A stretch of 63,327 nt of DNA, filler included, from Stramenopiles sp. TOSAG23-6 (Eukaryota), in assembly GCA_900128565.1 (NCBI GenBank). It is 9 parts of 9 records of this genome, joined end to end, with 100 filler letters (N's around TTAATTAATTAA, not from the genome) between each part and the next. Parts side by side here need not be neighbours in the genome. Positions count along the whole stretch, not along the records: positions 26,195 to 34,814 come from LT636435.1; positions 34,915 to 43,532 come from LT636436.1; positions 43,633 to 52,237 come from LT636437.1; positions 52,338 to 60,930 come from LT636438.1; 5 more parts are not named here. One strand, written 5' to 3'. The notes under the pieces are model-generated. The model was not told the DNA's origin. It saw nothing but the letters and a program-made list of their open reading frames with translations, and made no database searches. Position numbers and translations under genes: made by a program. Below, piece by piece: positions 1 to 62,129 of the stretch (position 1 is the first letter of the stretch; every line of letters begins with the position of its first letter).

Positions 1-87
1 TTGTGAAAAAATAGTACAAGATTTTTGTTATTAGGTACAAAATTTCGTACGAAAAAAAATTAGGTAAAAAAAATAATGAAAACGTAC

Positions 88-783
88 ATTTACTAACGCT
101 TCTTTTTGAGCTAATGTTAGTTCATCCAACCGATTGTGATTTAAAATTACTTCAGGCTCTTGTACCATTGATACAGCCGCGGTCGGATTCCATTTCGCGT
201 GTTCTTTTCCCGTCCCTAGTTTAGCAACACAGATTAGATCTAGTTCTTGGCCCTGACGAATAGTTGCCAATTTGATGCCAATATCCTCTGCCTCGGATTC
301 TTCTTTAGAAGAGGCAAAATGAATCGGTTGAACTCTAGTCTTAATTAACTCTTCTCTTCCTGTTTGTTGATTGTATTCTGTCCATGGGCGAGGTATCAGG
401 TCCCTACTTGTAATATGAATACTCTGCCGTGGGTCACCTTTAGGCAGCTTGATCTTTAAGTCTATTATGACAGAACAATTCACACACCGATCTTCGCAAG
501 TACAATCACGCGCATAAAACATACCATTATTGATTCCATCCTGATGTCTCAAGGGAATAAATCCCAAACGATGAGCTAGAAACTCATCGTGCAATACAGT
601 ACTGTTTTTACGTACCTCTACCAGGTCAATCGCAAGTATAGGAGTCTCCGCAATCATAACACGGCGTAAGACGTTCGCTACACTTAAATCCGTTTCCGAG
701 AGGACAAATTTGATCATATCATCAGTTAACTCTAACACATCAATCTTTGGGAAGCGATGTTCAATTCCCTTATATTCCGTCAT
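88..783 (-). CDS. RPB3: RNA polymerase II subunit RPB3, exon 1 (3' part beyond window edge; family intron starts at 87)
   Basis: Motifs ANVLRRVMIAETPILAID, VLHDEFLAHRLGFIPL, C-x-C-xxx-C-xx-C Zn site, GTGKEHAKW. Confidence 0.93.
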
Positions 784-4063: not shown

Positions 4064-6342
4064 TTACTCTTCCATTTGTAAAGATAAAGTTCCCATAAAA
4101 TTAAGCCAAATCAATTTACACAAATCAGGGCTCCATTTCCCTTTTTCACCAACGACTTCCTCAAACTCAGACGATACATGTATTTTGGAAAAATATTTCA
4201 AAAAAACAATTCGTTAGGTACAAAATTTCGTACGAAAAAAACATTCGATTTTTTTNTGAAAAAAAAANTAAANCATACATCATTCCAAGGTATAAGATCG
4301 ACAATGTTACCTTTGTGTGGAACACCAATACAAGCACCAGAAGTTTTTGATATCATATTATTATGTTTCATTCGACCTCTCGCAACTGCAAGGTCACACA
4401 GCCCAGATAATTTCAAGATTCCATATTTTCGCATCAAGTTTGTAGCAACATCATCATTTTCTTCATTTTCTTCATCATCGACCAAATTTTCCTGGGCTTC
4501 ATCAACAGTAGAATGATCTTTTTCCCATTTTTCCTGATTCTCATCTTTTCCAAAATTGCCCCAAATAACCTTTTTGCTTTCATTACTATTTTTCAATGCT
4601 TCATTATTTCGATTTTTGCGACACCAGTTATACCATTTACGTTTGCGACGTTCCAACCACACGGTAATATTATGTCGTATTTTTTTTGGTTTTTTTTGTT
4701 TACTATTATTCGGATTATTACGCAATTTATCTACAGCAGATTTAAGCTTATCAGCTCTACTCGACCAAACCCTAGCATCTTTGGGAATTTCAATTTTCCT
4801 CTTTTTTCTATTTTCAAGGCATACATCTAAAGTTTTGCGAGCATCATCAGCAACTGACGAAGCAATACACGACGCAATACTTGAACCTTGAGCTACATTA
4901 CAACTATTGTTTTGACTATTTGAATCTGAACCTAAGTAACATTCAATTCGTAGAAGTGCCTCAGCAGCAGTCATGGCGACACATTTATCTACGTTTTGAC
5001 TTTTTTTTTGAATCTTTTTTTTGCTTCTTTGCTCTGCAGCCTTTTTAGCTTTACGTTCCCTTGACAGTCGATCTTTTTGTGATTTCATGACTGCTTTAAG
5101 GATGTCTTCTTGCTGGCGTAGTTGTTCCATCTGTAGCGTTTCAAAATGTGTCAAAGTTTCCAACCAATCAACACTTCCCTTTTTATCAAACAAATTTTGG
5201 TATTGTTCTGTTAGGAAGGCATTTTTCATATCGTGACGGTTAGCATGTTGCTTTAATGCACTTATATATTTTGTTTGTAATTGAGCAAGTTTTTTTTTAT
5301 CTTCATCTGTTCTACCAACGCCATCACTAGCAATGGCATACGCGTTGACTTTATAAACAGCTTCTAATTCTTCAGACATTTTTGTGTTATACGTTTGTAA
5401 AACTTTCTGGGTGTGTAATTTTAGTTTCCAAACAGCATGTATTTTGGAAAAATATTTGAAAAAAAAAAAACTTAAATTTGTTAGGTACGAAATTTCGTAC
5501 GAAAAAAAAATTCGAATTTGAAAAAAAATAAAACATACATCCTCTTTACCTCTAACTTCTTTAAGTCGGGTTTCGGTTTGTTTCATTTGAATTTGAAGGA
5601 TATCGTTTTGTCCATGTTTTTCATGAATGAGTTGTTGAGCAGATTGACCGGTTTTATCATTTTTTAGCCCTGTTAACTCTCTTTGGATAATGTGTTGTTG
5701 TTGGACTAGTTGCTGTTGTAGGATAAATTGTTGTTGTTGAAGCAGTTGTTGTTGTTGGACAAGTTGTTGTTTTTGAAGTAGTTTTTGATCTTGTTCGTGT
5801 TTTTCACGAATCTGCTGTTGAGCAGAACTAAGAACAGAACTATTATTCTTTTGCTCTAGTTGGACCTGTTGCTGTCTTTCAAGAAGTTGTTTTTGTTGTT
5901 GTTGAAGCATTTGTTGTTGTTGGAGGAGTTGTTGTTGAAGGAGTTGTCGCTGCTCAGCAAGGTGACGTTGTTTGACGAGGTTTTGAAACTCGACAAGTTG
6001 TTGTTGCTGTGTGAGTTGTTGTTGTTGCTGTTGGGCAAGTTGTTGTTGTTGGGTGAGTTGTTGTTGTTGGGTGAGTTGATGTTCCGGCGACTGTGCATTC
6101 GTATTAGAATTTGTAGATTCAACTATACTCGTAGACTCTGGTGACTGTTGCTGTTTGTTTTGCTTCATCAGTAGCGCTTGTTGTCCCTGCTGTGTATTAA
6201 TTGATTGTTGCTGTGGGTGAGAAGAATTGCTTTCACTTACAACTCGGGACCCCATTGTAAGAGCAGGAACAGTCTCATCCTTTCCTCCCTCCTTTCCAGG
6301 GTTGAGCTCTCCCAAGGTTTGATCACTTTTTTCTCCAGTCAT
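4064..6342 (-). CDS. Glutamine-rich coiled-coil protein of unknown function; introns 5437-5538 and 4178-4278 (both GT-AT)
   Basis: Poly-Q ORF; removing the two family introns gives KED|AVWKLK and PWND|VSSEFEE...MEE*; start codon choice is tentative. Confidence 0.7.
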
Positions 6343-6810: not shown

Positions 6811-7662
6811 ATGGACTTTGCAAGTTCGAACATGCTTATTGCATTGTTTACTTTCATAGCGTTGATTCTGGCATATTTCTTCTTTGGCAGTGGTGGTAGT
6901 AAGACGGAAGATTCTTCTAAGTCAAGACTTCAGGTTGCCGAGGAACGCGAACAGTTGCTCTCAAGAAGGTCAGCTATCGGTGTCAAAGAGAATGACGATG
7001 TTGCTACGGAATCGCAAAACAAAGATAACATGGTGGAAGCAGAAAAGTGTGCCAACAGTGAAGTGAATTCTGGTTTGATTTCCAAGGTTGTTTACAATGA
7101 ACCTTTTACAGTTTCCCCCGACACCGTCACCTTTAACTGTACCACTGACCGTATTCCAGGTACAAGTAGTGTAAAGCAATATGTTGAAGTAAAGAACAAC
7201 ACCCCAGAAAGGGCTGTATTTAAAGTTCGTACCAATAATCCAAAAAGGTATCTCGTAAAACCTTCTATCACTTTTGTAGGTAAGAACAGTTCAGCGAGAA
7301 TAGAAATCACTCTACGTGACAAGGAAATTGACCCGATTGTGAAGGATATGAATAACAAAAATGTAACCGAGATGAGTGTTAATGATAAATTTCTTCTACA
7401 ATGGATGACATTGGACGAAAAGTTTTACTACAATGACGCTTTTTTTGACCTAATAAAGGAAGCCACTTGGATCCAGAAAGCTCAGCGTTTGATTAAAGCT
7501 GTGTACGTTTTCATCATGAATTTCGATTTTTTTTTTATACGAAATTTTGTACCTAACGAAAAAAATCAAATTTTTGAAATATTTTTTCAGCAATACATAC
7601 CACGGGATGAACAGAAGCAAACCTTCAAGTTTAGTAAACTTCGAGTTAGATTTACAATTTAA
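6811..7662 (+). CDS. VAP-like MSP (major sperm protein) domain protein with N-terminal TM anchor; intron 7503-7598
   Basis: AVFKVRTNNPKRYLVKP, DKFLLQ and C-terminal KLRVRF MSP motifs. Confidence 0.85.
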   Translation: MDFASSNMLIALFTFIALILAYFFFGSGGSKTEDSSKSRLQVAEEREQLLSRRSAIGVKENDDVATESQNKDNMVEAEKCANSEVNSGLISKVVYNEPFTVSPDTVTFNCTTDRIPGTSSVKQYVEVKNNTPERAVFKVRTNNPKRYLVKPSITFVGKNSSARIEITLRDKEIDPIVKDMNNKNVTEMSVNDKFLLQWMTLDEKFYYNDAFFDLIKEATWIQKAQRLIKAVYVFIMNFDFFFIRNFVPNEKNQIFEIFFQQYIPRDEQKQTFKFSKLRVRFTI

Positions 7663-7778: not shown

Positions 7779-8567
7779 TTAAAATTTATTATTCTTTTCT
7801 ATATACTCATTTGAGCATAATAGTTCCGAAAACCAAGTAGATAGTGCAGAAATAGTCATTAATGATTCTTCACCGGTTAATCGATTTCGTACTTCTACAC
7901 AACCATTCACCATTCCCTGAGATTGTATATCACGACCAACTACAACTACAACAGGATATCCAACTAATTCGGATTCAACAAGTTTTTGACCAAGTGACTC
8001 TTTCCATCTGTCATCTAGTACTACAGTACCATTGGTCAAAGTGCTATTTTTAATTGTATTAGTCCTATTCATAGTATTAAAATTTCGATGACAAAACTGC
8101 TTTTCTTGTATCTCAGTCAATTGTGTGGCAATGTGTTTGGCCTCATTTTTGAGATGTTTACTTGCCGAGACTACCAACGCAGAGTGAGGCGCAATTTCTA
8201 ATGGCCATACAATCCCTTCTTTTGTTCTTGTTTTTGTATAATTTGATGATGGAATACTTTCAATCAAAGCAGCAATAATTCTAGTTACACCTATACCATA
8301 ACAACCCATGAATCACGAATAAATATTTCAAAAATTTGTTTTTTTTGTTAGGTACAAAATCTTCAAAGAAAAAAAAATTAAAAAATAAATACATTCGAAA
8401 TTGAAATAACTAATGAAAACGAACATCTCCAGAGGCATTTTCTTACCATTTTTATCAGCAAAATTTGCACCAAGCAACTTTGAATACTTATTACCTAAAT
8501 AAAAAATTTGACCAACTTCGATACCTTTGGACTCTTCTAATTGTCCTGTTTCACATACAGGACAACC
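7779..8567 (-). CDS. proS: Prolyl-tRNA synthetase (bacterial/organellar type), C-terminal part; intron 8308-8424
   Basis: GIEVGQIFYLGNKYS, spliced PLE-MGCYGIGVTR (motif 3), WPLEIAP, anticodon-binding domain LDDR...G.K...ELVGYP. Confidence 0.9.
8308..8424 (-). mobile_element. Family intron, GT...AT (GTTCGT...GATTCAT)
   Basis: Removal of exactly 117 nt yields conserved PLEMGCYGIG; no AG at the junction. Confidence 0.85.
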
Positions 8568-8634
8568 ATGTATTTTGTGAAAATATTTCAAAAAAAAAAC
8601 TTAAATTTGTTAGGTACAAAATTTCGTACGAAAA

Positions 8635-8904: not shown

Positions 8905-9682
8905 GTAAATGCGCTTTTAACTCATATGAGGCTTTAGACCTGAATAGTCAATGCTTATATGAACAAAATTCAGATCAAATCGCATCACTTTTTCCTGATT
9001 TAGCAGCAGATGTACATTTTAATTTTATGAATTTCAATTTTTTTTTTTGGTTTTCGTACGAAATTTCGTACCTAACAAAAAAACAATATTTTTTTTTTTT
9101 TTTTTTTTTTTTTAGAGTATGTATATATATTTCTATATATTATTTCATCCCATCTATTTCAATTTGAATTTTTTTTCATACAACAAATTATATATCTAAC
9201 AAATATCAATTATGAAATATGTTTCATAATTTATTTAAGCTCAAAAGAAGAATTAGACAAATGTATGTTTTTTTTTTTTTTTGTATGAATTTTTTTTCGT
9301 ACGAAATTTTGTACCTAACGATTTTTTTTAGTTTTTTTTTGAAATATTTTTCTACAATACATTTGCATTAGGTGCCGAAGGATCTACAATCAATGTACAT
9401 TTTTAATCATTACAAAATTTTAAATTTTCATACGAAATTTTGTACCTAACAAAAAAATTTAAAAAAAATATTTTCAAACAAGAAATGAAAATTTTAAATT
9501 TTCATACGAAATTTTGTACCTAACAAAAAAATTAAAAAAAATATTTTCAAACAAGAAATGAAAATACAACTCCTGAGACACGAAATGTGTATGACGTCAC
9601 TAGCTATATAGGAGCACGTGCCGATACTAATGGACTTTTAGCAGCAGATCAAGGGTTAGGGTTATTAGGACCATTTGGTTAA
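8905..9682 (+). CDS. 3' fragment of a hypothetical gene with several small exons
   Basis: Short open exons (KCAFNSYEAL..., SKEELDK, FALGAEGSTIN, ...QGLGLLGPFG*) separated by family introns; not all junctions resolved. Confidence 0.45.
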
Positions 9683-10899: not shown

Positions 10900-11621
10900 A
10901 TGTATTTTGGAAAAATATTTAAAAAAAAAAAAAAATGTTAGGTACAAAATTTACCATAAAAAATAAAATCATACAAAAAAAAATATAAATAAAACATACA
11001 CACCAAGATTAGATATATAATTTCCTTGTTGAATACGATTTAATGTTCTGCGCACTGATATTTTCTTCTGTTTTATGCGTTCATACCAATGTTTAGGCGA
11101 TTCATGTATTTTGGAAAAATATTTCAAAAAAAAAAATAAAATTCGTTAGGTACAACATTTCGTACGAAAAAAAATTAATACAAAAAAAAAAAAACATACA
11201 TTCTCTTCTTTTTCAGGTACTTGTATCTCATCAATATGTAATGTCAGTGAATTAATCAACCTAACAACAGGTATAATATGATTATGTAGTATATTTCGAG
11301 CTCGTTCATCTGAGATTCTGAATTCCTTGGTCAGCTGATATGATGTCTCTCAAAACAGTTTCGTTCCAATTATTTATTGACAGTTTCAAAAAAAGAAAAA
11401 AAAAAATATTGTGTGGCCAATCAAAATCTCTCGATCATATACTCAAGTTTTTATCGTGTATTCATTCAAGTCCTACACAGAAATCCAATTAAAACCCCAC
11501 ATTTTTTTACTTTATTCTCATTGTATACATTATTTGTTTTCTGTGAAATAGATACAGTATATCTCTTTCATACTAGTGTATGATGTACTAACATTTTGTT
11601 GTACTACTATATACAAAAAGT

Positions 11622-33427: not shown

Positions 33428-34763
33428 TTAATGATTTTTATTATTCACTGGGAGTCTTAAACTCAAATTTGATTGTGCGGTATGAAAATCCGAGTCGAGC
33501 ATTAGTTTTCGAAATTCTTCAGGTCCGATTTGTCCATCACCAGATATATCAGCTTCTGCAATAACACGTGCCACATTTGGATCATCTGGTCCATATGTAT
33601 TTTGGAAAAGTATTTCAAAAAAAAAACTAAAATTTGTTAGGTACTATATTTCGTACGAAAAAAAATTCGATTTTTTTGTTAAAAAAAAAAATAAAACATA
33701 CATTGATCCCCCAATAATGTAGCCAAATTATCTTTTGTAATGAAACCATTGCTATCTATATCCATGCGTTTAAACGTGCAATCGATGATTTCCTCTGTCA
33801 TTTCTCGTTGTTCAATACATGTATTTTGGAAAAATATTTCAAAAAAAATCGTTACGTACAAAATTTCGTACGAAAAATAAATTTGAAATTGAAAAAAAGA
33901 AACATACATGCAGCTAGGAATTCAGAGAACTGTACCACATTAGTATTATCTTGATCAATAGCGCAAAATATTTGTGAAATATTCAATTGTTTATCTTTAG
34001 GGTTAAGGTTATTATTTGGGCAAGTGTCTTCCATAACTTTCTGAAGTTCTGATTCACTAATAGTTCCAGTGTTATTTGTATCTATTCGTCGAAATTCCTT
34101 GGATAAATCTTCAAGTTGTGCTCTATCATAGAAATGTGCCATCACTCGAAGGGCGACTCGTTTCAATTTTCTGTAGGACTGAAATTTCGAAAGTGTTTCT
34201 ACAATTTTGATTTCACACTTATTTTCATTTGGCTCTTCGATATGCTTTTTGGAAAAATATTTGAAAAAAAAAAACTTAAATTTGTTAGGTACAAAATTCC
34301 GTACGAAAAAAAAATCGATTTTTTTGTTAAAAAAAAAATAAAACATACATCTTCTGGGAGTACAACGTTGTTCCTAAGCCATTGATGTTTCATTGCCTGT
34401 GCTGATGTAAGTCTTTCATCGGGATTTCGTTCTAGGAGCGATTGCACAAAACTTTTTGCATTCTTTGATATATTTTTCCATTTTTTAGATGTAAATAATT
34501 TACTATTATCCTCCAAAATTGCTTTTTCAAGTCGTATATTATAGGCTTCTGTTTTTTCCTCTGATGTTCTCTTCTCATGTTTAAATTTATACCATTTTTT
34601 CTTGGCAAGACCACTGAATGGTGGAGTGCCAGATAAAAGGAGATAAATATTATCAAAAAATATTTGAAAACTTTTGAAATTAGTTAGGTGTATTACTACA
34701 TTTCAATTAAATATGAAAAAAAAATAAAAATGGATAACGTACAAGTAACGACACCAAGTGACC
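33428..34763 (-). CDS. CDPK: Calcium-dependent protein kinase, C-terminal part (kinase subdomains IX-XI + 4 EF hands); introns 34645-34742, 34242-34348, 33819-33907, 33595-33701
   Basis: Spliced WSLGVVT-YLLLSGTPPF, ERLTSAQAMKHQWL, KLKRVALRVMA junction domain, and DTNNTG, DQDNTN, DIDSNG, DISGDG EF hands. Confidence 0.92.
34645..34742 (-). mobile_element. Family intron, GT...TT
   Basis: Only this 98-nt excision gives the conserved kinase motif GVVTYLLLSGTPPF; the exon ends TT and the intron ends TT. Confidence 0.85.
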
Positions 34764-35049
34764 ACGTATTTTGGAAAAATATTTGAAAAAAAAATCGTTA
34801 GGTACAAAATTTCGNNNNNNNNNNNNNNNNNNNNNNNNNNNNNNNNNNNNNNNNNNNNTTAATTAATTAANNNNNNNNNNNNNNNNNNNNNNNNNNNNNN
34901 NNNNNNNNNNNNNNTTTTTATTTATTTTGGAAAAATTTTTAAAAATTTTTTTTTTTGGTTAGTAAAAAAAAAAAAAAAAATTGTTAGGTACAAAATTTCG
35001 TACGAAAAAAAAAAAGTAGATAAATTTTTTTTAAAAAAATAAAAGATAC

Positions 35050-35712
35050 ATGAGCATCATCAATGTTTGTATTTTGTGAATTTAATTGTGCAGTAAAGGC
35101 AGAATGGCTACGAGGGGAATTATTTATTTGAATTGCATCATCTTTCAATGTTTCAGTCACATCATTCATTGTCTCAGATGGTTGAATTGTTTTTTTTTTT
35201 TTGGATTGTTTTTTTTTTTTCTCATTTTTACGTTTTTTTTCTGCTTTTTTTGGTGACTCTGGCGATAGACGAAAAAGAGAATTCGATGCAGTGATGTATT
35301 TATAACGAAAGTAAAATGGACCTTCGCGTAATGTTCCAGTAATTCGTGTCTGAAATACAAAGGCTCGACCTTGAATACAAAGCAGACTGTTGTCATCGCA
35401 TTCATCAGATATATAAATTTCATTGACTTTTCTATCTTTTGGATCACGACAAGCCACGTCGTTATTACGATAACACCATTGTAGACGCACACTCATTTCA
35501 CTTTTCCGATGATTCTCATTCGTATCTTGCCAGAATGAGAGACAACGAGCAACATAAGGAGCTACTTTCTTAGAAGGGGGTTGAAGTAGAACATAATCTC
35601 CCACACGCGTCAATCCGGAGTATTCATCAACAAAAGCAGCGTAATATGCACGCTTTGAACGATTCGATTTGTTTTGTATCCTTACAGGATCACCAAACCA
35701 ACGTATTGACAT
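35050..35712 (-). CDS. BAH-domain chromatin protein, exon 1 (3' truncated)
   Basis: RVGDYVLL...PYVARC..FWQ...VRLQWCYR...NEIYISDECD.N.L.CIQG. Confidence 0.85.
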
Positions 35713-36058
35713 GCTAAATAACTATACGTTGGTATACATGTTCTCATACAATACGATACTAAGAGTAACGAATTTACTTGTCTATATAATTGTGCTTCTT
35801 GTTGTTGAACAAGAAAAAAAATGATCGTGTGAGTTTGATTTGATGACTTGATTTGACTTCTTCTTGATGTTCCTCTTTTTTTCCTCGCGCGATTTTTCTT
35901 TCGAAAAAAAATGAAGAATTGAATTAGGTACAAAAAATAGGTACGGAATCATGCGGAAGGTTTCCTTATTTTGGTACGAAATTTTGTACCTAAATTTGAA
36001 TTCTGAATAACTTGAAATAAATTGTGCATTATATTGTATTGTATTGTATTGTATTATA

Positions 36059-50050: not shown

Positions 50051-52113
50051 TTAGTTACCAAGTAACCCCGTTTCTGTTATGAAATATTTCATTGAATTTG
50101 TCGGAGGTATTAAAAAATCTCCGTGTGAGTAGTGGTACACCATATCACACTTATGGGTTAATCGTTCGCATTCAAATGAACATTCATTATTAGGGTTAGG
50201 GTTATTAGAATCATCATTAGGGTTAGGGTTATGAGAATCATGTTTGATTTTCATTGCATTTCGTTTTCGCTTCTTACGGCGCATATTTGGTATATAGTTA
50301 CCAAAATAGGGAGAAAAATGTTTTAATTTTTCATGTTGTACAGTAGGAGGTACAACTGTTTGTAATAAATTTGAAATTGGAGAAAATATCAATTTTTTCT
50401 GAAATCCTACATTTTTTTTGGACAAAATTTCGTGTTTTGTATTTTTTGTATTTTTTACATTTTTTGTATTTTCATCAAAAAAAAAAAGATTTTTTTTCTT
50501 CCAATTTTGTACAATATTGTGCACAATGAGTACATATATTTTGCATCTCATCTGATATAATTTTTGATATTTTTGGATTTTCATGATTATTTGATACATT
50601 TTGTAATTTAGTGATGAAAATATCAGCTCCAAATCCAAGAAAATTTAATTTTTTTTTTTCGTGTTTTTCGTGTTTTTCGTGTTTTTCTTCTCTGTTTCGT
50701 GTTTTTATAATTGTATTCAATGTATTGTTAGTATACCATGTATTTAATCGTCTATACTCTACAAACATATCTTTACTCTTGTTTGTATTCCTTACTTTTT
50801 GTTTTCCATTTTTATTTTCAAAATTTTGTTTCATTGCAAAAATATCGAAACATTGACACGTGTCACTTTGTGTATCACAAATAAAATTAGTATTGTCCTG
50901 ATTATTGTCTAAAATTTTTTTTTTTTTTTTTTTTGAACATTTAATTTTTTTTTTCTCGTTTTTTTCATTCATTTTTTCATCTTTTCGTTTTCGACGTAAT
51001 CGATTGTTTTCTAATCTTTGAAGTTGTTTTATATGTTTTTCGTGTTGATCAGATACTTTTTTAGCTTCAACGCAATTTGGACAAAACCAAAAATTGTGTA
51101 AAAATATTTTAATTTTTTTTTTTTTTTTTGGTTAGGTACAAATATTTCATATATATTTTTTTTTTGGAAGGGGGTTAGGGTTAGGGTTAGGGTTAGGTAC
51201 AGTATTCAGTATGTTAATGTAAACGTACAATGTATTCGCATTTTTGGTGTTATTTTAGTAATACATTGAGGTAAGCAAAAAGAGTGATATACATGAATTG
51301 TGAAAAAATATTTTAAAAAAATTCGTTAGGTACAAAATTTCGTACGAAAAATAAATTCGATTTTTTTTTTTTTTTTTTCGGTAAAATAAAAAAAAAATAA
51401 AACATACATGATTACAATTAGTACAAGTCAATAGTTTTGAAGTGTGATTTTCAGTCGTAGATCCACAACCCTATATTGCAAAAAATATTAAATTGTTTTT
51501 TTGTTAGGTACAAAATTTCGTATGAAAAAAAAAAAAAAAATTGAATAAAAAAAAATTTCAAAAGCAAATGTAAAAAATATTTTTAAAAAAATATTTGTTT
51601 TGTTTTCTATGAAAATTTCGTATGAAAACCAAAAAAAAAAAATTGTAGAAAAAATTGAATAATGAAAATGTACATAACAACAGCCTGAATGGATTTTTTT
51701 TTGTTTTTCATTTTTTTCATTTTTTTGAGAATGTGCCATGTTTCTCTCTATATAATCATTATCATTTGTAATACACTCTTGATTTTGTAAAGATTTTAGT
51801 GATGTTTTTTTCAATGTATTTTGAAAAATATTTAAAAAAAAAAACTAAATTTGTTAGGTACAAAATTTCGTACGAAAAATTAAAAAAAAAAAAAAAAACA
51901 CATACATGAATCTTTTTCTTGTTTTTGTTGTTTTTGTTGTTTTTCATATTGTTGATATTCTTGTTGTTGTTGATATTGTTGTTGTAATAGCCTATCTCTC
52001 CACGAATTCCATTGTTTTAAACAATCATGTGCCGCAGATACCAACATTTTTTCAAATGCTGTATTAATACCAGATTTTTCAAATGGAGGAAATACAAACG
52101 ATTTCGTGTTTTT
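50051..52113 (-). CDS. PHD-finger protein (5' truncated); introns 51814-51905, 51471-51673, 51293-51407, 51089-51228; probable homopolymer frameshift near 50480
   Basis: Spliced CY|GC...LLTCTNCNH|VYHSFC...H|WFCPNC gives a complete C4HC3 PHD. Confidence 0.8.
51089..51228 (-). mobile_element. Family intron, GT...TT, with internal (CCCTAA)n and a duplicated branch motif
   Basis: T|GG restores the PHD WFCPNC motif. Confidence 0.85.
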
Positions 52114-52390
52114 ATGTATTTTGGAAAAATATTTCAAAATTTTTTTTTTTGGTTAGTAAAAAAAAAAAAAAAATTGTTAGGTACAAAATTTCGTACGAAA
52201 AAAAAAAAGAAGATAAATTTTTTTTAAAAAAATAAAANNNNNNNNNNNNNNNNNNNNNNNNNNNNNNNNNNNNNNNNNNNNTTAATTAATTAANNNNNNN
52301 NNNNNNNNNNNNNNNNNNNNNNNNNNNNNNNNNNNNNAATTTCGTACGAAAAAAAAATCGATTTTTTTGTTAAAAAAAAATAAAACATAC

Positions 52391-53230
52391 ATATGAAGAG
52401 TCGCCATTTGAGAAAAATGTATATGACCGATTTGTTAAGCCTCCTAATGTGGTTAAAAGATAGGCAAGTGGGAACCAGAATAAACGGGCATAAGTCTTTT
52501 TTCGTCTTTGTCGCAGTGCAGTATTTGTCACTCCCGTGTTATATGAGACATGTATGAAAATTCTAATATAGAAAACTACTACAACTATTGACACTATCAT
52601 AATTGGAAAGTACAGCATTAACATTTGTGCCAGGGATTCAGATGACTTCACCCAACACCATGATCCAGTTAAGCCATAAAGGTCAAACTGATAACCAAGA
52701 CTGGCAATGATGGTAGGGACAATAATACAAAAAGCATTAAAACCAACCATTAAGTGAGAGCTACTGCACTTCATCACCACCAATCTGTATAATGTTACTG
52801 CAATACAAGCAACATAACAAATTATTGAAAGACAACTAGCTTGCGTTATAAACCCTGAAATACGGCATCCGTTGTGATCAGCGTTCATCCACTTTGGTCG
52901 CCCGTCTGCAATAATTGTTGTCAAGGCACTGAAAAACTCGTTAATACTCATAACAAAGTTAACTAATATCAAACAAAATACAAGCTGAGTCTCATCATAC
53001 CCATCACGCCAACTAGAGCCACCTACACGAACACGGTGTAGCTGTGCAGGCGCTAAAGCCTTTCGTTCTCTGTGACGAAGTAATAAAAACGAGAAAATGA
53101 CAAAGACACATCCCATAACACTAAAACCAGCTGTGAAGAAAGTTATCATAGCAAGGGTATTTCGCTGTTCTGAAGTTAAACCATCAGGAGCGAGGATGCC
53201 TAGAGCATCTGCATTAGACGGAACGGTCAT
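52391..53230 (-). CDS. cAMP-receptor/GCR1-like 7-TM GPCR, exon 1 (3' truncated)
   Basis: FSVMGCVFVI, GCRISGFITQ..LS, YGLTGSWCWV, RLFWFPL. Confidence 0.82.
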
Positions 53231-53526
53231 GCGACACAGATCCAATGATTCCAATCTAATTTGAAAACCTGTGTATCCACATCCAATGATTTCTACTGAT
53301 GTCAGTTTTTTGAGTTCCTGAGTCGATGAAATCTGCTATCCCTACCAATAGACTATAGTAATACCCAGATTTCGTGCCCTAACTGTCGCACTGACTATAT
53401 CGCGAGCGGTCTCAATTTATTTCAGTAACTGTTACTAATAATTGCTTTAGGAGTACGTATAGTATCATCCACACTGTCACAATTTTCAATAATATTGAGA
53501 AATGAGGAAACATATTGGAATTACAC

Positions 53527-56101
53527 ATGAAGCATAAAAGAAGGAACTCAACCCATAAAAGGCTGGAATATTCTATGCGTAACCAACGACGCTCAAGTAA
53601 AGGCTTTGGGTACGTAAATAAGAATGAACTAGTTGTAGATAATGAAACTCAAATATCCATGCTGAGAAATGAGCAGCGTTTGTACAAACAACGTAAAGAC
53701 GTAGCAAAACGCAAAGCGTTACAAAAAGAACGGACCCGCTTGCGTGCCCAGAATGCATTTAAAAATGCTACAAAATCGACGCTATGGCAAAGAATTTTCG
53801 GTCGTGGTGCTTCGGCTCGTCAAAAGCAAAAGATGAATAGTAAACGATATACTAAAACTTGGAGAGAGCAATATATCCAACCCTTTTTCAAGGATTTAAA
53901 GATTTCACAAGAGCACGAAAAGGAGATATTTCAAGACGTGCAATGCTGTGTTGGAACAGATCTTGATTGGAAGCATGACCAAGTCAGGAAAATCTTTGAT
54001 GATACTCTTTATTCTTTACCTCAATGGATGCGAAGATATGAATCTGGTAAGAATACAGCAAGTCTTGCAATATCAAAGGAAATATCCGATGTTATTAGTG
54101 CAAATGGAAAACATGTTTCCATGGAATCAAAGTTGCCTGGACTTTCGACGTATAATTTTCAGGAGTCTTTTTTCCTTCTTCTGAGAGAATCTGATGCACT
54201 TTCTGACAATTGTTTGAGTGAGTACAGTGACGACGAAACTGATTCTATTAATCATCAAGATCATCAAGAAAAATCAAAACATAAAACAAATCATTTAACA
54301 TCACCAATTTTAGGGAAAGCATTGAGTGGTTGTATCGTTGTGTCCCATTTACTTCCGAGAGAAACTCGTGAAGAAAGGCCTTCTTGGAGTGCCCCCGATG
54401 TACCAACGTCTCTAAAAGGCAAACTTGAATATGTACATTTTCATCATTTTTTTTGAATTTCGATTTTTTTTCGTACTAAATTTTGTACCTAACGATTGTT
54501 TTTACGAAAAATAAAATATTTTTGTACAATGCATGATAGCAATTTGTTCATGGAAGTGTGGGAAGTAGTCTGGTGGAGTAGATCAAATAAGTTTAGTAGA
54601 GATATTTCTATACCTAATATGGGAACGTGGGAAAATGTTTTGTTATGGTATATCGAAGCAGCCGGGAAAAGACGTGTACGTTTGCAATTTCAAAATTTTA
54701 ATTTATTTTTTCGTACGAAAGTTTGTACCTAATGATTTTTTTTCGAAATATTTTTCACAATACGTGGTGTTGCTGCTGTATTAACACTTGCTGGTATACA
54801 CGATATACCATGGTGGTTACAACACCGACCTGAACCAGATTGTTGTTTATATAATTCTGTTCATTTCAAAGAACCATTAGATGTACATCATAAAGAATCA
54901 GTCGATTCACAGTATAAAGTTCCATTAGATGTACATCATAAAGAATCATTAGATATACATCATCATAAAGAGCATCCTTTTATAAGCTTATGTGATGGTG
55001 CAGCTGAAATTGAAGCTGTCTCTCAATTTCGAGTACGACCACTAGCTATTGGTGGTTTACAACAGTTTTATCAAGATTCAGAAAAACCTCGTCGAACCGG
55101 CCAGAGTGTTATTCCACATGACGATGTTATTTCAATAGCGGCTACAGCCATGCGTGACTACTCGAATTATAAAGAAAAGAAACGGAAAAGAACCTCAAAT
55201 GTAAATATTGATTTGAAAAAAATATTAAAAGGTAAAGTTAGAGTTGACAAGAAGTACCGTATTTCTCCAATTGATGTTGCCCATGTATGTTTTCATCATT
55301 TTTTTCAATTTGTTTTCGTCGTAAATTTTGTACCTAACGACTTTTTAAAACCAAACAAAAATATTTTTCACAGTATATGTTTGGATTCTTTTGTATACAA
55401 TACCTGCAACTGCATCTGGTTCTAGCATTGGTATTCAGAACAAAATCAAAATAAAAACGAAAGAATCAAAAGACTCAAAATCTTCTTTTAGTAAAGAAAT
55501 CCAAAACAAATTTAGAAAAAGATCTAAGAATAGTTATCAATCGTATTTTTTAGAAAAAGCTGCAGCTCATTTAAGTTTGTCAGAGTTACATAATAATATT
55601 TTGAATACTAATAAAAAAAACACCAAAGATCTAGAACAAAAAAACCGAGGTTATTCAAGAAAAATCAATAGCAACGAGTACAAGGATATCTTTAATAGCT
55701 TATCAAGTTTGAAATCTCAGAAAAAGAGTGAAATTAGTAATCTTAAAAAATCTCGAAACAATTCGACCACAATGTTGAACACAAGTTGGATAAGAGCGTC
55801 GAAACGCGAAGTTGAAATAAAACCTTTGACTTCTCAAAAATCCCCCAAAAGACAAAAACAAAGACGTGTATTATCAGTACCACGTGTGTTGTCTGAATGT
55901 ATGCCGTCTGTTTCCACAAATCTAGTATCTGTTTCACAAGGCGGAGGTGTTGATTGTTTTGTGAGTAGATCTAAAAATGATAGAAAACATTTAAAACCAC
56001 TGGAAAGTTGGAAGGATGGTATTTCACAAATGGTTTCAGAAAGAATTGGAAGAGCAGATAGATCAGCTGATATTAGAGAAGACACATATAGTACTGTATA
56101 A
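53527..56101 (+). CDS. Hypothetical protein; introns 54433-54534 (AT), 54676-54765 (GT), 55285-55378 (AT)
   Basis: Four exons join into one open frame only with these junctions. Confidence 0.65.
54676..54765 (+). mobile_element. Family intron flanked by a GT duplication (GT...GT)
   Basis: AGAC-GT|GTACGT...CAATAC-GT|GGTGTT; excision restores the frame (KRR|GVAAVL). Confidence 0.75.
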
Positions 56102-56244
56102 AAAAAAAGCCAGAATAAATAAATATTGTAAATACTATAGTGATTGTTTTTTTATTATAACATAAAATCAACAACTTTTCAAGGTACGATTTCTCTCACG
56201 ATATAAGTACATCGTGTTACATCGTGTACACACCATTTGATTTT

Positions 56245-57924
56245 TTATAAAACCTTTTTGTTAAAGCCTTGTAAAATCGAACCTAGGAATCGATCAATAA
56301 TACCAATTACAGTAAACACACCACCAATGATTGCACAGAAATTAGTAATAAAATGATATATTGGTTTTTTCGTGAACGAGGTGACTACAGTCATTGGAGA
56401 TAAGTCATATTGAAACATAATAGAAGGTGGCGTTCCATCATCTTCTTTGTGTTCACTCGAAAAGGCAGCATATATTGTGAAAAAAAATTGAAAAAAAAAT
56501 CATTAGGTACAAAATTTCGTATGAAAAAACATTTAGGTAAACAATTCATGAGGAAAACATACATAACTATAGTAATGCATTTTGCGATCATCTTCTTCAG
56601 TAGAACTATCAAAATGAAAAGATTTACTCACCACCTTTAAATAATGCACAAACGTATAACTATTTCGTGTTGTGTGAAATTCTCGATCATCAAGTTTATC
56701 ACTGCGTAAATCATTTTTCATTACTGACGGAAGTTGACGATACTTTTTTTTATATATATTGTGAAACAATATTTCAAAAAAAAAAAAATTAGGTACAAAT
56801 TTTTTTTTTTTTCGTAAAAAAAAAAAAAATCAAATTCGTGATGAAAACGTATACCTAGCATTGATTGGATCTCCAAAATTCAACTTGTGTACAGTATGTG
56901 AAGAATTTACCATTCCATTTTCTGTATCATATCGAGGAGATACAAGATTCATATGAAAGTTACCTGGTACACGTTTCACCAAGAGCCTGCCAGAAACATT
57001 GCAACCTTCATGGCCGACTACATCAAGTTCACTGTGTCCATTTGCCACATCTTCTTCATGCAACTGACGCTTTTTCAAATCTGCATGATCTTTAAATTCT
57101 TTCCTTGAGAGAGTTTCATATGCTTTGGTAATGAGACCAGTGACAGTTCGTTCACCATGATATGCTTCGAGAGGAGACAAACCACCACCTGTGAAAATGT
57201 AAATGGTAGGATATCCACGAATATAATGTTTCTGACAAAGTTGTTTTTCTTCAACACAGTTCACCTTCGCAAATGTGATTGGAGCAATGTGTTCATGTTT
57301 ACCCATAAGCTTAGCGGCAGCTTTCTCCCAAACAGGCTCGAGACGTTGGCACCATATACACCAAGGAGCATAGAAATTCATCATGATAACCTGATCGCTA
57401 TTATCCCTGACATAATCTTCGAAAGTTTCCCCAGTAACTGGATCACTATGTACCTCACCCGAGGCATCTTCTTGCAATATTTGCTCCAACGCTGCGAGTT
57501 CTTTTTGGGCAGTTTCATCGTGTTCTTCGGGCTCGATAGAACTACTCTTTATTTTTCCCAAGTGCCTTCCTCTGTGATCAACACGAACCTTTTTAATATT
57601 TTGGTGAATATCGTGCTTTCGTTCACCTGTAACATCCGAAATATCAACACTGGCAAATTCGCAAGGCAAGTCATGTACAGTAATATTAAAGTTGATCGAT
57701 AACATACCACTATGTGAGTCAGAAGAAACCTCGCCCCGTTCGAGAACAATGTCAGTTGTCGTGGTAACTTTCAAAAAAGACTGAAGCTCAAGACCGAAGA
57801 GTAAAGTCATTATTAAAATACCAAAGAAGGATAGACAGGCTCCAGAATAGGTAGACACATACAAGTCATCAGGAACTTTTTTGTATAAATCCCATCTACG
57901 AATAAAATTTCCAAGGAACCCCAT
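56245..57924 (-). CDS. PDI-C-type protein: Erv41/Erv46 (ERGIC) with embedded thioredoxin domain; introns ~56754-56852 and 56470-56562
   Basis: DLYKKVP, INFNIT..LPC...VD..D..G, FYAPWCIWC, EGC.V.G.L.VKRVPGNFH, FQYDLSPM, CAIIGGVFTV. Confidence 0.92.
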
Positions 57925-58225
57925 AATAAGTATTGATCGAGATCAGAGGTAACACTGTGTTTGTTTCGCTTGAAAGTTTAAACATTGGATTCGAAAAAAA
58001 GCAAATTTTAGCACAATTAGGGTTAGGGTTAGGGGATAATTGGGGAAACATACAATTATTAATGTGCTATAAATTTACAAAACTTCAAAAATATTTAAAA
58101 ATAATAATATCATCAGATAATATATAGGGGGAATATATTTATACAAAAAACTAAATAGCCACTACATCTGAATCATTGGAATTTCACCAGTTAGTCTGCT
58201 GGACGAAAAAAGTCCTACTAATTGA

Positions 58226-60919: not shown

Positions 60920-61036
60920 ATTTGACCTAANNNNNNNNNNNNNNNNNNNNNNNNNNNNNNNNNNNNNNNNNNNNTTAATTAATTAANNNNNNNNNNNNNN
61001 NNNNNNNNNNNNNNNNNNNNNNNNNNNNNNTTTAAT

Positions 61037-61435: not shown

Positions 61436-62129
61436 TTTTATCATGAAGCTACACGCATTTGCCGCAACACTTCGCTCGTGTTGAGCATCGAGGACAATAT
61501 TTCTTGCAATTTGACTAGATAAATTCGCATTCTTTGCTGCTGACATTGCAATAAAAGCAGTTTGTTTTATACATGTTAATTTTTTGTTTAAATATTCTAC
61601 AGAAATCACTTGGCATGCTTCATCAATTGAACGTATTGCAGAATAAACAGATGAAGCTGCGACGAACGCTGCTGTAGCAATAATTCCTTTTTTTGCTTCC
61701 TCATTTTTTTTCATTTTTAAAATTTTTTCACAATCATTCATTTGTTCATGTATTTTGGAAAAATATTTCGATTTTGTTTTCGTTAGGTACAAAATTTTTA
61801 TAAAAAAATAAAAATTGAAAAAAAAAAAAAACATACATGAGCAGCAACGGCAACAAAATCACCACTGAAACCACAATTAAATTTACACTTAAAATTTGCA
61901 AAACCTCCTAACAATCTTGCGATACCACGACCCTGTTTTTTTTTGGTTGGTGATTTTACCTTTTTCGGTGTAATTTTACATTTTTTTTGTTTTCGACATG
62001 TATTGTGAAACAATATTTTTTTTAGTATAATAAAATTTGTTAGGTACGGAATTTCGTATGAAAAAAATATTTAGATAAAAAATTGTTAAAAAATTCAATT
62101 TTGAAAAGGTACACTCTTCCAATGAATTG
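61421..62129 (-). CDS. Hypothetical protein, 3' fragment; introns 61998-62112, 61748-61836
   Basis: Exons join in frame (EE|CRKQ, AAH|EQMN). Confidence 0.55.

What the first reader, a model, noticed from the sequence alone, without database searches (positions are those of the whole stretch)
34645..54765. The acceptor dinucleotide is a 2-bp target-site duplication (AT/AT, TT/TT, GT/GT): MITE-like origin
Seen: the last two exon bases usually equal the last two intron bases. Most copies read AT|GTA...TAC-AT, 34645-34742 and 51089-51228 read TT|...-TT, and 54676-54765 reads GT|...-GT. The core GTAT...ATAC is a short terminal inverted repeat. Known: introners in Micromonas and Aureococcus are non-autonomous DNA transposons that take one splice site from the TSD. 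Inference: here the element supplies the GT donor and branch site, while the TSD (preference AT, more loosely NT) supplies a non-AG acceptor, so splicing restores the original sequence exactly. No transposase is visible in this window.
Basis: partly seen in the sequence, partly recalled or inferred. Interest (0 to 1): 0.82.

Follow-up and report, generated by a model that had tools for sequence, protein, structure and literature searches.

The report
Repeated introns that end in AT
A marine protist genome fragment is full of near-identical short introns that are cut out at an AT instead of the usual AG, and the idea that this AT is a transposon's insertion footprint is possible but not shown.

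Summary
The sequence pattern is real. The window holds 45 complete copies (89-203 nt) of one intron family. All start GTAYG-like, carry a TACCTAAC core and mostly end ATACAT. RNA contigs from seawater metatranscriptomes join the exons across three copies. One of these passes over an AG five bases upstream of the cut. Another begins with A rather than G and excludes an AT-AC reading for that copy.

The target-site-duplication reading is not established. AT is its own reverse complement, so AT/AT is equally an inverted repeat (ATGTAT/ATACAT) or a fixed insertion motif. Of 12 informative non-AG copies, 3 match and 9 do not, one of them RNA-verified. The excess of non-AT matches gives P=0.004, but 0.03 or 0.21 if one or both TT/TT copies are dropped. 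Seven copies end in AG with no repeat. I found no transposase, no long inverted terminal repeat and no empty site.

Best reading: an introner-like family in a MAST-3-like stramenopile with a non-AG acceptor. A public gene model of one host gene mishandles both of its family introns. This is a new variant of a known kind.

The parts
4178..4278 (-). family intron, AT/AT
   Evidence: profile hit, open frames both sides
5437..5538 (-). family intron, AT/AT
7503..7598 (+). family intron, 5' flank GT; acceptor ambiguous (AT at 7598 or CAG at 7590)
   Evidence: both ends keep a frame open
8308..8424 (-). family intron, AT/AT, donor GTTCG, in an aminoacyl-tRNA-synthetase-like gene
9012..9115 (+). family intron with AG acceptor after a long T run, 5' flank AT
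9263..9362 (+). family intron, AT/AT
9395..9569 (+). family intron, AT/AA, with an internal tandem duplication of the core
10900..10999 (-). family intron, GT/AT (mismatch), RCC1-repeat gene
11104..11199 (-). family intron, AT/AT
13638..13732 (+). family intron, AT/AT
19166..19315 (-). family intron with AG acceptor, 5' flank AT
19485..19609 (-). family intron, AT/AT
19825..19941 (-). family intron with AG acceptor, 5' flank AC
20376..20543 (-). family intron, GT/AT (mismatch), donor GTAGG
   Evidence: phase derived from the series, not printed for this exact start
20704..20806 (-). family intron, AT/AT
22118..22261 (-). family intron, TT/AT (mismatch); an AG five bases upstream is out of phase
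25482..25585 (-). family intron, AT/AT
25642..25740 (-). family intron with AG acceptor, 5' flank GG
33595..33701 (-). family intron, AT/AT
33819..33907 (-). family intron, AT/AT
34242..34348 (-). family intron, AT/AT
   Evidence: 3' end set by family alignment, upstream exon too short to fix the phase
36286..36443 (-). family intron, AA/AT (mismatch)
37102..37235 (-). family intron, AT/AT
37731..37857 (-). family intron, AT/TT (mismatch)
38380..38492 (-). family intron with AG acceptor four bases past the family end, 5' flank AT
41908..42005 (+). family intron, AT/AT
42184..42299 (+). weakly family-like intron with CAG acceptor, 5' flank TG
43645..43751 (+). family intron, AT/AT; its 5' flank and 5' half repeat those of 20704-20806 (contig start)
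44698..44812 (+). family intron, AA/AT (mismatch), CFAP65/47-like flagellar gene
45963..46084 (+). family intron, AT/AT
47100..47210 (+). family intron, AT/AT
47372..47484 (+). family intron, AT/AT
47846..47968 (+). family intron, AT/AT
51293..51407 (-). family intron, AT/AT
51471..51673 (-). family intron with AG acceptor, 5' flank AT
51814..51905 (-). family intron, AT/AT
54433..54534 (+). family intron, AT/AT
55285..55378 (+). family intron, AT/AT; RNA contig joins 55282 to 55377, and the AG five bases before the end is not used
   Evidence: (X7 record 17)
56470..56562 (-). family intron, AT/AT; RNA contig joins 56468 to 56562; the spliced protein matches orthologs
   Evidence: (X8 record 25)
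56754..56852 (-). family intron whose first base is A, flanks GT/AT; RNA contig joins 56750 to 56850; no allowed register starts with GT or ends with AG
   Evidence: (X8 record 27)
61748..61836 (-). family intron, AT/AT
61998..62112 (-). family intron, GT/AT (mismatch), at a contig edge so the phase is unchecked
2..89 (-). partial copy (5' part, AT flank), cut by the window edge; RNA polymerase Rpb3/AC40-like gene
8568..8634 (-). partial copy (3' part ending AT) at a contig end
25891..26094 (-). partial copy (3' part ending AT), 5' end lost at a contig end
34764..34814 (-). partial copy (3' part ending GT), 5' end lost in the contig gap
34920..35049 (-). copy at a contig end (5' flank AT); overlaps 52105-52237
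37518..37626 (-). partial copy (5' part, AT flank) running into a run of N
42401..42607 (+). copy ending AT whose 5' end I could not settle
52114..52237 (-). partial copy (3' part ending AT) at a contig end
52338..52390 (-). partial copy (5' part, AT flank) at a contig start
62230..62291 (-). partial copy (5' part, AT flank) whose first base is A, at a contig start
35920..36000 (.). fragments of the family core in both orientations in an intergenic stretch, without the family ends
41733..41875 (+). ordinary GTAAGT...CAG intron without the family core (for contrast)

Best explanation
The window is a string of ~8.7-kb contigs from a small marine flagellate. By protein similarity it is a stramenopile, and a public label on the closest protein points to MAST-3.

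Its genes are interrupted about once per 1.2-1.4 kb by copies of one introner-like intron family. Each copy carries a yeast-like donor (GTAYGT) and a conserved core holding a branch-site-like TACCTAAC. It also has a T-rich tail ending ATACAT.

Shown: the copies are removed from mRNA exactly between the base before the donor G and the base after the terminal AT.

Shown: the cut is placed by position within the family end, not by an AG. AGs lying between the core and the end are passed over. Copies whose last T has become G are cut at the same place. One spliced copy starts with A.

Shown: the 5' exon ends in AT in most copies, and the next exon tends to begin with G.

Inferred: the family spread as a mobile element into AT^G-like sites, and the spliceosome (major or minor type not resolved) removes it.

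Open: whether the second AT is a duplicated target, part of a 6-nt palindromic terminus, or half of a short helix that brings the two splice sites together. I put the TSD reading at about one in three.
For: Family and copy number. There are 67 core-motif matches against 8.2 expected and 48 profile hits at E<=1e-3. I curated 45 complete copies. Pairwise identity between copies in different genes reaches 0.91. The median is 0.66, against 0.59 (maximum 0.71) for shuffled controls. The bins over the copies reach summed contig depths in the thousands, against about 9 in the flanking bins of the DNA run. At least seven contig ends fall inside copies.

Splicing. Three RNA contig joints lie at 55282^55377, 56468^56562 and 56750^56850. 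43 of 45 copies join at least 13 open codons on each side. The RNA-spliced ERGIC/thioredoxin/ERV protein aligns without gaps to five orthologs (52-61% identical) across both junctions.

Non-AG acceptor. 38 of 45 copies do not end in AG. 13 of 37 non-AG copies hold an unused AG downstream of the core. One of these, 55285-55378, is RNA-verified.

Register. At 56754-56852 the mRNA keeps the 5' GT and not the 3' AT. The single mismatch of the long piece is accounted for elsewhere (tables 3 and 8). This excludes the reading in which the intron starts two bases earlier and ends in AC.

Site preference. The 5' flank is AT in 27 of 37 copies against a 9.5% background. The first base of the next exon is G in 18 of 37 against 19.8% (P=7.5e-5). 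That exon starts GTA in 4 of 37 against 1.5% (P=0.002).

Lineage. The best named hits after the public model are oomycetes at 40-43% identity.
Against: RNA evidence covers only 3 of 45 copies and comes from assembled contigs of metatranscriptomes, not from raw reads. The assembly is fragmented at these repeats. At least one contig start (43633) looks like a join of two loci, so some 5'/3' pairings could be assembly artefacts. The branch point is not mapped, so the role of the TACCTAAC core is an analogy only. It lies 29-89 nt (median 42) from the 3' end. No snRNA is in the window, so the machinery cannot be assigned. Mobility is inferred from similarity and copy number alone: I saw no empty site, no polymorphism and no autonomous element. 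All complete copies lie in the sense orientation inside genes, as expected for any intron family whatever its origin.
Confidence: 0.75

Rival explanations
1. The family is a non-autonomous DNA transposon (MITE-like) with GTAT/ATAC termini. It makes a 2-bp target-site duplication, usually AT, and the downstream copy serves as the acceptor.
For: Non-AT matches (GT/GT once, TT/TT twice) number 3 against 0.43 expected when 3' ends are shuffled among the 37 non-AG copies (P=0.004). The mismatch rate (9 of 37) is about what decay of four positions would give in a family whose copies differ by 10% or more (my estimate). Splice sites recruited from TSDs are documented for introners (PMC9860276, passages read). 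A TA duplication with inverted termini was proposed for Physarum U12-type introns (bioRxiv 10.1101/2020.10.12.336362, passages read).
Against: 25 of 28 matches are the constant, self-complementary AT, which published criteria call ambiguous (PMC9860276). Of the informative non-AG copies, 9 of 12 do not match. P rises to 0.03 and 0.21 without one or both TT/TT copies, and their 3' ends differ from the family end at 2-3 of the last four bases. GT/GT also fits wobble pairing. The inverted repeat is only 4 nt, or 6 with AT. None of the 38 ORFs of at least 170 aa matches a transposase, integrase or reverse transcriptase family. No full copy lies outside a gene or in antisense. The seven AG-ending copies show no AG at the 5' flank.
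Confidence: 0.33
2. There is no duplication. The terminal AT belongs to the element, and the upstream AT is an insertion-site preference. This could arise from RNA-level reverse splicing or another introner mechanism that homes to AT^G(TA) sites resembling the element's own palindromic end.
For: ATGTAT is the reverse complement of ATACAT, so the intron's last six bases can pair with a target reading AT^GTAT. The next exon begins with G in 18 of 37 copies and with GTA in 4 of 37 (P=0.002), which a 2-bp duplication alone does not predict. All complete copies are genic and in the sense orientation. No TIR or transposase was found. Introner families without TSD or TIR are known (PMC9860276, passages).
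Against: It does not predict TT/TT or GT/GT, which are 3 cases against 0.43 expected. Core fragments in both orientations lie in an intergenic stretch, which hints at a DNA-level history.
Confidence: 0.3
3. The identity is functional. The last two exon bases and the first four intron bases pair with the last six intron bases. This helix sets the 3' cut two bases past its end, as paired ends do in euglenozoan nonconventional introns.
For: 30 of 37 non-AG copies can form both flank pairs, counting G-U. That includes all four GT/AT copies and GT/GT. In 7 of 10 copies folded with 6-nt flanks, the minimum-energy or centroid structure closes the intron with this helix. The cut is fixed by position and passes over upstream AGs. 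The next exon starts with a purine in 27 of 37 copies, as in the Euglena code (PMC12501133, abstract and passages).
Against: Folding z-scores are not significant in 7 of 10 copies. The two TT/TT copies form neither pair, and five copies form only one. AG-ending copies with AC or GG flanks cannot pair. I saw no covariation: GTAC donors keep an A opposite the C. The strong GTAYGT donor and the co-existing ordinary GT-AG intron point to a spliceosome.
Confidence: 0.2
4. The family is spliced by a diverged minor (U12-type-like) spliceosome. That system tolerates A or G at the first base and varied last bases, as in the expanded Physarum system.
For: Donors are R-T-A-Y-G-T-T-T-T, with A at the first base in two copies, one of them spliced in RNA. 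Ends vary (AT, AG, GT, TT, AA) at a fixed position. Physarum non-canonical U12-type introns include GT-AT (17%) and AT-AT (8%), and a transposon origin was proposed for them (bioRxiv 10.1101/2020.10.12.336362, passages).
Against: The donor differs from [G/A]TATCCTT at positions 5 and 6. The core differs from TTCCTTRAC and lies a median 42 nt from the end, not about 10-15 nt. No U11, U12, U4atac or U6atac is in the window, and the rest of the genome was not available.
Confidence: 0.15
5. Artefact. The apparent non-AG junctions would come from amplification or assembly chimeras, or from reverse-transcriptase template switching between short direct repeats.
For: The assembly breaks and at least once mis-joins at these repeats. 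Template switching favours short direct repeats.
Against: The copies carry stops and must be removed to keep 43 of 45 host frames open. Two junctions give ortholog-like protein. An independent seawater metagenome contig holds the intron at 55278-55544 (X3 record 2). The joints come from two RNA runs of one study, as coded.
Confidence: 0.03

Closest known systems
Introners of marine algae and other protists (Micromonas, Aureococcus, Symbiodinium, Chrysochromulina and others; PMC9860276 and PMC12130899, passages read; Huff et al. 2016 recalled, not read)
   Same: Many sequence-similar short introns at unrelated gene positions in an aquatic protist. They are lower in G+C than the exons, and one splice site may be recruited from the insertion site.
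   Different: The reported families use GY-AG, and the TSDs described in the passages read are 3-9 bp. Here 38 of 45 copies end in something other than AG, and the putative duplication is 2 bp and constant. In the 2025 survey, families with mainly noncanonical sites were kept only if annotation and RNA support could be checked (PMC12130899, methods passage).
Physarum polycephalum expanded U12-type introns (bioRxiv 10.1101/2020.10.12.336362, passages read)
   Same: R at the first intron base. GT-AT and AT-AT boundaries occur. Inverted termini flanked by a 2-bp direct repeat are interpreted as a transposon footprint.
   Different: The Physarum donor is RTATCTTT, with a TTTGA branch motif 10-12 nt from the end. 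Most Physarum introns still end in AG or AC, and the repeat is TA. Here the donor is GTAYGTTTT, the conserved core lies about 42 nt from the end, and AT is the majority end.
Amoebophrya introner elements (PMC7789003, abstract and passages read)
   Same: Repeated non-canonical introns with direct repeats overlapping the boundaries and inverted repeats that can bring the ends together, in a marine protist with no clear transposase.
   Different: Amoebophrya elements have 8-20-nt inverted repeats, 3-5-nt direct repeats, no conserved terminal dinucleotides and many families. Here there is one family, a strong GT donor and an inverted repeat of at most 6 nt.
Nonconventional introns of Euglena and hemistasiid diplonemids (PMC12501133, PMC12621601, PMC6221363; abstracts and passages read)
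   Same: Boundaries that can slide over short direct repeats, paired ends, a purine at the start of the next exon, and a suspected MITE origin.
   Different: Those introns lack a U1-type donor and use a CAG/CTG pairing code at fixed spacers. The gene layout here, with alternating strands and short spacers, and the best protein hits are not euglenozoan.
Non-canonical introns of the tunicate Fritillaria (PMC13326754, search listing and abstract only; Henriet et al. 2019 recalled)
   Same: [quoted passage not shown]
   Different: It is an animal. Its reported boundary types are mainly AG-AC and AG-AT (recalled). It has no single conserved intron sequence family like this one.

Membership tests
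Introner (repeated, mobile-element-derived spliceosomal intron family) | Many sequence-similar introns at non-homologous positions in one genome | tested here: met
   45 complete and about 10 partial copies in 63 kb across at least 20 different genes. Identity reaches 0.91 against a shuffled maximum of 0.71.
Introner (repeated, mobile-element-derived spliceosomal intron family) | Copies are removed from mRNA | tested here: met
   Three RNA contig joints. 43 of 45 copies keep frames open. Orthologs support two junctions.
Introner (repeated, mobile-element-derived spliceosomal intron family) | Locus-specific target-site duplication (a 5'/3' match within loci, not between loci) | tested here: inconclusive
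   25 of 28 matches are the constant AT. 3 of 12 informative non-AG copies match. P is 0.004, 0.03 or 0.21 depending on the TT/TT copies.
Introner (repeated, mobile-element-derived spliceosomal intron family) | Presence/absence polymorphism or recent gain relative to relatives | not testable with these tools
   The one read-laying run showed no empty site in the tables printed, which were truncated. The metagenome scan returned no family member.
TIR DNA transposon / MITE | Terminal inverted repeats of about 10 bp or more (recalled criterion) | tested here: not met
   The consensus ends share 4 nt (GTAT/ATAC), or 6 with the AT flanks. Beyond that there are only T/A runs.
TIR DNA transposon / MITE | Autonomous partner encoding a transposase | tested here: not met
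   All 38 ORFs of at least 170 aa were scanned against Pfam, and none matched a transposase, integrase or RT family. This covers the window only; the rest of the genome is not held.
U12-type (minor) introns | Donor [G/A]TATCCTT | tested here: not met
   The family donor is GTAYGTTTT and differs at positions 5 and 6. A at position 1 occurs in 2 copies.
U12-type (minor) introns | Branch motif TTCCTTRAC close to the 3' end | tested here: not met
   The nearest motif, TACCTAAC, lies 29-89 nt (median 42) from the end.
U12-type (minor) introns | Minor snRNAs present | not testable with these tools
   No Rfam family matches in the window, and no whole genome is held.
Euglenozoan nonconventional introns | No GT-type donor, plus the CDG/CH'G pairing code at N3 and N5-6 spacers | tested here: not met
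   44 of 45 copies start with GT, the exception being 56754-56852. Positions +4 to +6 are TGT or CGT. The complementary ACA at the right spacing is seen only in the CACAATACAT subfamily.
Euglenozoan nonconventional introns | Host is a euglenozoan | tested here: not met
   The best named protein hits are oomycetes, and the closest public model carries a MAST label. Genes alternate between strands.

The most novel reading that the evidence does not exclude
A free-living marine stramenopile lineage has replaced AG by AT as its main acceptor. A single mobile element colonised its genes by the thousand and brought, or created by a 2-bp duplication, its own non-AG end. The spliceosome (possibly a diverged minor type) now places the 3' cut by position or by pairing with the 5' splice-site region. 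It ignores upstream AGs and tolerates A at the first base. As a side effect, public gene sets for the lineage are badly under-called, and some reported gene losses may be annotation artefacts.
Probability: 0.3. Interest if true: 0.8.

Novelty: new variant of a known kind. Interest (0 to 1): 0.6.

Why it matters
Introners are the best current explanation for bursts of intron gain. Almost all described families obey GY-AG, so they say little about how far a spliceosome can be pushed. Here one family accounts for nearly all introns seen in 63 kb. It ends in AT in most copies, still works when the end is AG, GT or TT, and in one RNA-verified case works when the first base is A. That makes it a natural series of mutants for the question of what defines a 3' splice site.

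It also has a practical side. The one public gene model I could compare (P0121) is identical to the window's gene except at four places. It reads seven codons into one family intron, drops 20 residues at the other, and omits two further exon pieces that orthologs keep. The paper on uncultured stramenopile single-cell genomes (PMC5778133, passages read; 'intron' occurs twice and 'splice' never in the main text) reports only 2,694-3,289 genes in its 19-21-Mb MAST-3 assemblies. It also reports apparent pseudogenisation of dynein genes in one of them. If unmodelled AT-ending introns are common there, both results would need a second look. That link is my inference.

My searches found no paper describing these introns. 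The library lacks most subscription journals.

Tried and rejected
1. Whole genome: none is held, so a genome-wide logo, a search for long elements and an snRNA search were impossible.

2. Metagenome scan for copies with a non-A base after the family end. It gave 87 loci from soils, guts, sediments and other sources. On inspection, 0 of 87 carry the family core in a family context, so all are chance matches.

I then laid one contig. The parts of that contig without RNA cover, including 54433-54534 and the GT/GT intron 54676-54765, remain unverified by RNA. No joint lacking an intron was seen in the DNA run, but the tables were truncated.

4. Protein searches. The RCC1 exon next to the GT/AT intron at 10900-10999 gave 4,815 hits, none above 48% identity, so it gave no transcript-level check of that junction and no lineage signal. 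The kinase exon next to the TT/TT intron, searched among longer proteins, gave nothing.

5. The ESM Atlas on the CFAP47-like exon gave only generic flagellar clusters.

6. Rfam and tRNA scans of the window found nothing.

7. Diplonemid origin. I considered this because single-cell diplonemid genomes are said to hold non-canonical introns (PMC12621601 and PMC6221363 passages). The primary paper is not held. I rejected it on gene layout and protein hits.

8. The AT-AC (intron two bases to the left) reading is rejected for 56754-56852 by RNA. For AT/AT, TT/TT and GT/GT copies it gives the same mRNA and cannot be excluded by sequence.

9. My first automatic boundary callers mis-set several ends, and I replaced them by hand-curated coordinates. 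Rows dropped from the 37-copy statistics are the 7 AG-ending copies and 7503 (ambiguous). About 10 partial copies were never included.

10. Earlier notes of this scan: three look-ups returned nothing that bears on this.

Full report
What the window is.

Seven N44-linker-N44 blocks about 8.7 kb apart, plus an eighth 1.2 kb after the seventh, show that the 63-kb window is a chain of contigs ordered by length. G+C is 23-38%. Genes lie on alternating strands with short spacers. The 38 ORFs of at least 170 aa include LRR, WW, IQ, RCC1, Sel1, MSP, BAH and EF-hand/kinase proteins. They also include CFAP47/65-like flagellar proteins, an Rpb3/AC40-like subunit, a tRNA-synthetase fragment and an ERGIC/thioredoxin/ERV protein. 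None matches a transposase, integrase or reverse transcriptase family. No Rfam family or tRNA is present.

The ERV protein's best named relatives are oomycetes at 40-43% identity. Its closest hit, P0121, carries a public label that begins GSMAST32. I therefore treat the organism as a MAST-3-like stramenopile, on the strength of that label only. The stretch 52338-59361 is held by small DNA runs, by independent seawater metagenomes, and in part by seawater metatranscriptomes.

The family.

A 12-nt core motif with up to 2 mismatches occurs 67 times against 8.2 +/- 2.8 in shuffles. Lining up the 51 exact core hits shows a stereotyped intron. It has a GTAYG donor followed by a T run, often a CGTACG palindrome, and the TACCTAAC core. 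After a second T/A-rich stretch it ends ATACAT.

A profile from 9 clean copies gives 48 hits at E<=1e-3. After hand curation I hold 45 complete copies of 89-203 nt and about ten partial ones, most of them cut by contig ends. Copies in unrelated genes are up to 0.91 identical; the median is 0.66, against 0.59 for the shuffled control with a maximum of 0.71. An ordinary GTAAGT...CAG intron without the core also exists at 41733-41875.

Are they spliced, and where?

I laid one DNA and three RNA runs on 52338-60930. The bins over the copies have summed contig depths in the thousands, against about 9 beside them in the DNA run, so the family is highly repeated in those samples.

Three RNA contigs skip a copy. 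X7 record 17 joins 55282 to 55377. X8 record 25 joins 56468 to 56562. X8 record 27 joins 56750 to 56850. The first shows that the AG five bases before the end is not used.

The third is the most telling. The genome reads GT, then an intron whose first base is A in the family register. The mRNA keeps that GT. The one mismatch of the 809-nt piece is listed at 57490, not at the junction (tables 3 and 8). The junction can slide only from -1 to +3 around the family register. So no reading of this intron starts with GT or ends with AG, and the reading in which the intron lies two bases to the left and ends in AC is excluded.

Translating the RNA-supported splice of this gene gives a protein that aligns without gaps to five orthologs (52-61% identical) across both junctions. 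For the family as a whole, removing each copy joins at least 13 open codons on both sides in 43 of 45 cases. The two exceptions sit at contig starts.

38 of 45 copies do not end in AG. 13 of 37 non-AG copies hold an unused AG between the core and the end. In four of the seven AG-ending copies the G stands exactly where the family has its last T. The other three (9012-9115, 38380-38492, 42184-42299) use an AG elsewhere in or just past the tail. The cut is therefore set by position in the family end, not by an AG.

The observation.

Across the 45 copies the pairs of 5' exon end and intron end are:
- AT/AT 25
- GT/AT 5 (one with an ambiguous acceptor)
- AT/AG 4
- TT/TT 2
- AA/AT 2
- one each of GT/GT, AT/AA, AT/TT, TT/AT, AC/AG, GG/AG and TG/AG.

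Among 37 non-AG copies the 5' exon ends in AT in 27, against 9.5% AT in exon sequence, and in T in 35. The next exon starts with G in 18 of 37 (background 19.8%) and with GTA in 4 of 37 (background 1.5%, P=0.002).

Is the second dinucleotide a target-site duplication?

The published test is a match that is specific to each locus. A motif that is the same at all loci is called ambiguous (PMC9860276, methods passage). Here 25 of 28 matches are the constant AT. AT is also its own reverse complement, so ATGTAT at the 5' junction and ATACAT at the 3' end form an inverted repeat just as much as AT...AT forms a direct one.

Twelve non-AG copies are informative. Three match (GT/GT and two TT/TT) and nine do not, including four GT/AT. 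Shuffling the 3' ends among the 37 copies gives 0.43 non-AT matches on average, and P=0.004 for three or more. This rests on few cases:
- Both TT/TT copies have 3' ends that depart from the family end at two or three of the last four bases.
- One TT/TT copy follows a 21-nt exon, so its phase cannot be checked from the upstream side. The flanking exon is the end of a CaMK/CDPK-like kinase domain. The spliced product gives the usual spacing of the kinase subdomain IX motif, which I recall rather than tested.
- Dropping one or both TT/TT copies gives P=0.03 or 0.21.
- GT/GT and all GT/AT copies fit a pairing model through G-U wobbles. 30 of 37 copies can form both flank pairs, 5 form one, and the two TT/TT copies form none.

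The two models thus make opposite predictions for the TT/TT and GT/AT copies, and both kinds occur. The RNA-verified GT/AT copy shows that identity of the two dinucleotides is not needed for splicing, which argues against a mechanistic need for the direct repeat. By the same token the TT/TT copies argue against a strict need for pairing. However, no RNA contig shown covers them: one lies in the contig I laid (51089-51228 does not; 34645-34742 does not either), so neither was tested by RNA.

Folding ten copies with 6-nt flanks closes the intron with the terminal helix in seven. The energies beat shuffles clearly in only three.

Other points bearing on a transposon origin.

The inverted repeat is 4 nt, or 6 with AT. 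Beyond it the ends share only T/A runs. No autonomous element or transposase is in the window. All complete copies are genic and in the sense orientation. Only fragments of the core occur, in both orientations, in one intergenic stretch. I saw no empty site (truncated tables). A scan of public metagenome contigs for non-A variants of the family end returned only chance matches, 0 of 87.

What it most likely is.

I conclude that this is an introner-like family with a non-AG acceptor. It is removed precisely and targeted to AT^G-like sites. Its mode of spread and the meaning of the second AT are unresolved. I put a 2-bp TSD at about one in three, insertion without duplication at a similar level, and a functional helix somewhat lower. 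These readings are not fully exclusive.

The machinery is also open. The donor and core look like major-type yeast signals. But A at the first base and the varied last bases at a fixed position recall minor-type introns, especially the transformed Physarum system. There GT-AT and AT-AT boundaries and a TA-flanked inverted repeat were reported (bioRxiv 10.1101/2020.10.12.336362, passages). The defining minor-type motifs and distances are not met here.

Known relatives and novelty.

Four precedents exist:
- introners that recruit a splice site from a TSD (PMC9860276, PMC12130899);
- the repeated non-canonical introns of Amoebophrya (PMC7789003);
- the nonconventional introns of euglenozoans (PMC12501133, PMC12621601);
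- the Physarum case.

The idea is therefore not new. What differs is a single family that makes AT the majority acceptor in a stramenopile.

I found no description of it. The main text of the paper on uncultured stramenopile single-cell genomes mentions introns twice and splicing never (PMC5778133, passages; supplements closed).

The public model P0121 shows the practical cost. It is identical to the window's gene except that it reads VCFPHEF from the start of one family intron, skips 20 residues at the other, and omits two more exon pieces that orthologs keep.

Noticed in passing
8635-8734, 17366-17465, 26095-26194, 34815-34914, 43533-43632, 52238-52337, 60931-61030, 62130-62229: Each block is 44 N, a 12-nt all-frame stop linker, then 44 N. 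The window is a chain of contigs of slowly falling length (about 8.73 to 8.69 kb), so neighbouring genes across a block are not neighbours in the genome.
   Followed up: yes
34915-35060 and 52105-52237: These two contig ends align at 92% column identity over about 130 nt inside one intron copy. They probably overlap, which would join the BAH-domain gene (34984-35721) to the AT-rich, intron-dense gene at 50051-52113.
   Followed up: partly
43633-43700 versus 20750-20818: The first 12 exon bases and the 5' half of the intron at the start of this contig repeat those of the intron at 20704-20806, then diverge after the core. This is probably an assembly join through the repeat, and it warns that some 5'/3' pairings could be chimeric.
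   Followed up: partly
56754-56852 and 62230-62291: Two copies have A instead of G as the first intron base (ATACG donors). The first is spliced in an RNA contig.
   Followed up: partly
51150-51200 and 50190-50240: Four telomere-like CCCTAA repeats run on from the CCTAAC of the family core inside the intron 51089-51228. TTAGGG-like repeats also lie in the neighbouring open reading frame.
   Followed up: no
35920-36000: Fragments of the family core (the CGTAC...GTACC part) lie in both orientations in an intergenic stretch after a stop codon, without the family's ends.
   Followed up: partly
9395-9569: This intron carries a 74-nt internal tandem duplication that repeats the core.
   Followed up: no
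58415: A DNA contig of an independent metagenome (X3 record 5) and an RNA contig (X8 record 28) both leave the window sequence at 58415. The long ORF 58226-60928 combines SH3 domains with only the last 60 residues of a glycosyl hydrolase family 1 domain. This may be a misassembly or a structural variant.
   Followed up: no
45600-45930: The CFAP47/65-like gene changes frame in a low-complexity lysine/serine-rich repeat near 45715 with no intron there. This is a likely homopolymer error or a real frameshift.
   Followed up: no
55950-57942 (minus strand gene): Public model P0121 of this gene also omits two exon stretches of 14 and 12 residues that all five orthologs keep, besides mishandling both family introns.
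   Followed up: yes
3' exon starts of the 37 non-AG copies: The exon after the intron starts with GTA in 4 of 37 copies (background 1.5%, P=0.002), so it repeats the intron's own first bases. A 2-bp duplication alone does not explain this.
   Followed up: partly
26352-33404: A 2,350-codon open frame has no intron and no Pfam match, next to a gene (33.5-34.8 kb) with five family introns in 1.3 kb. Intron density is very uneven between neighbours.
   Followed up: no
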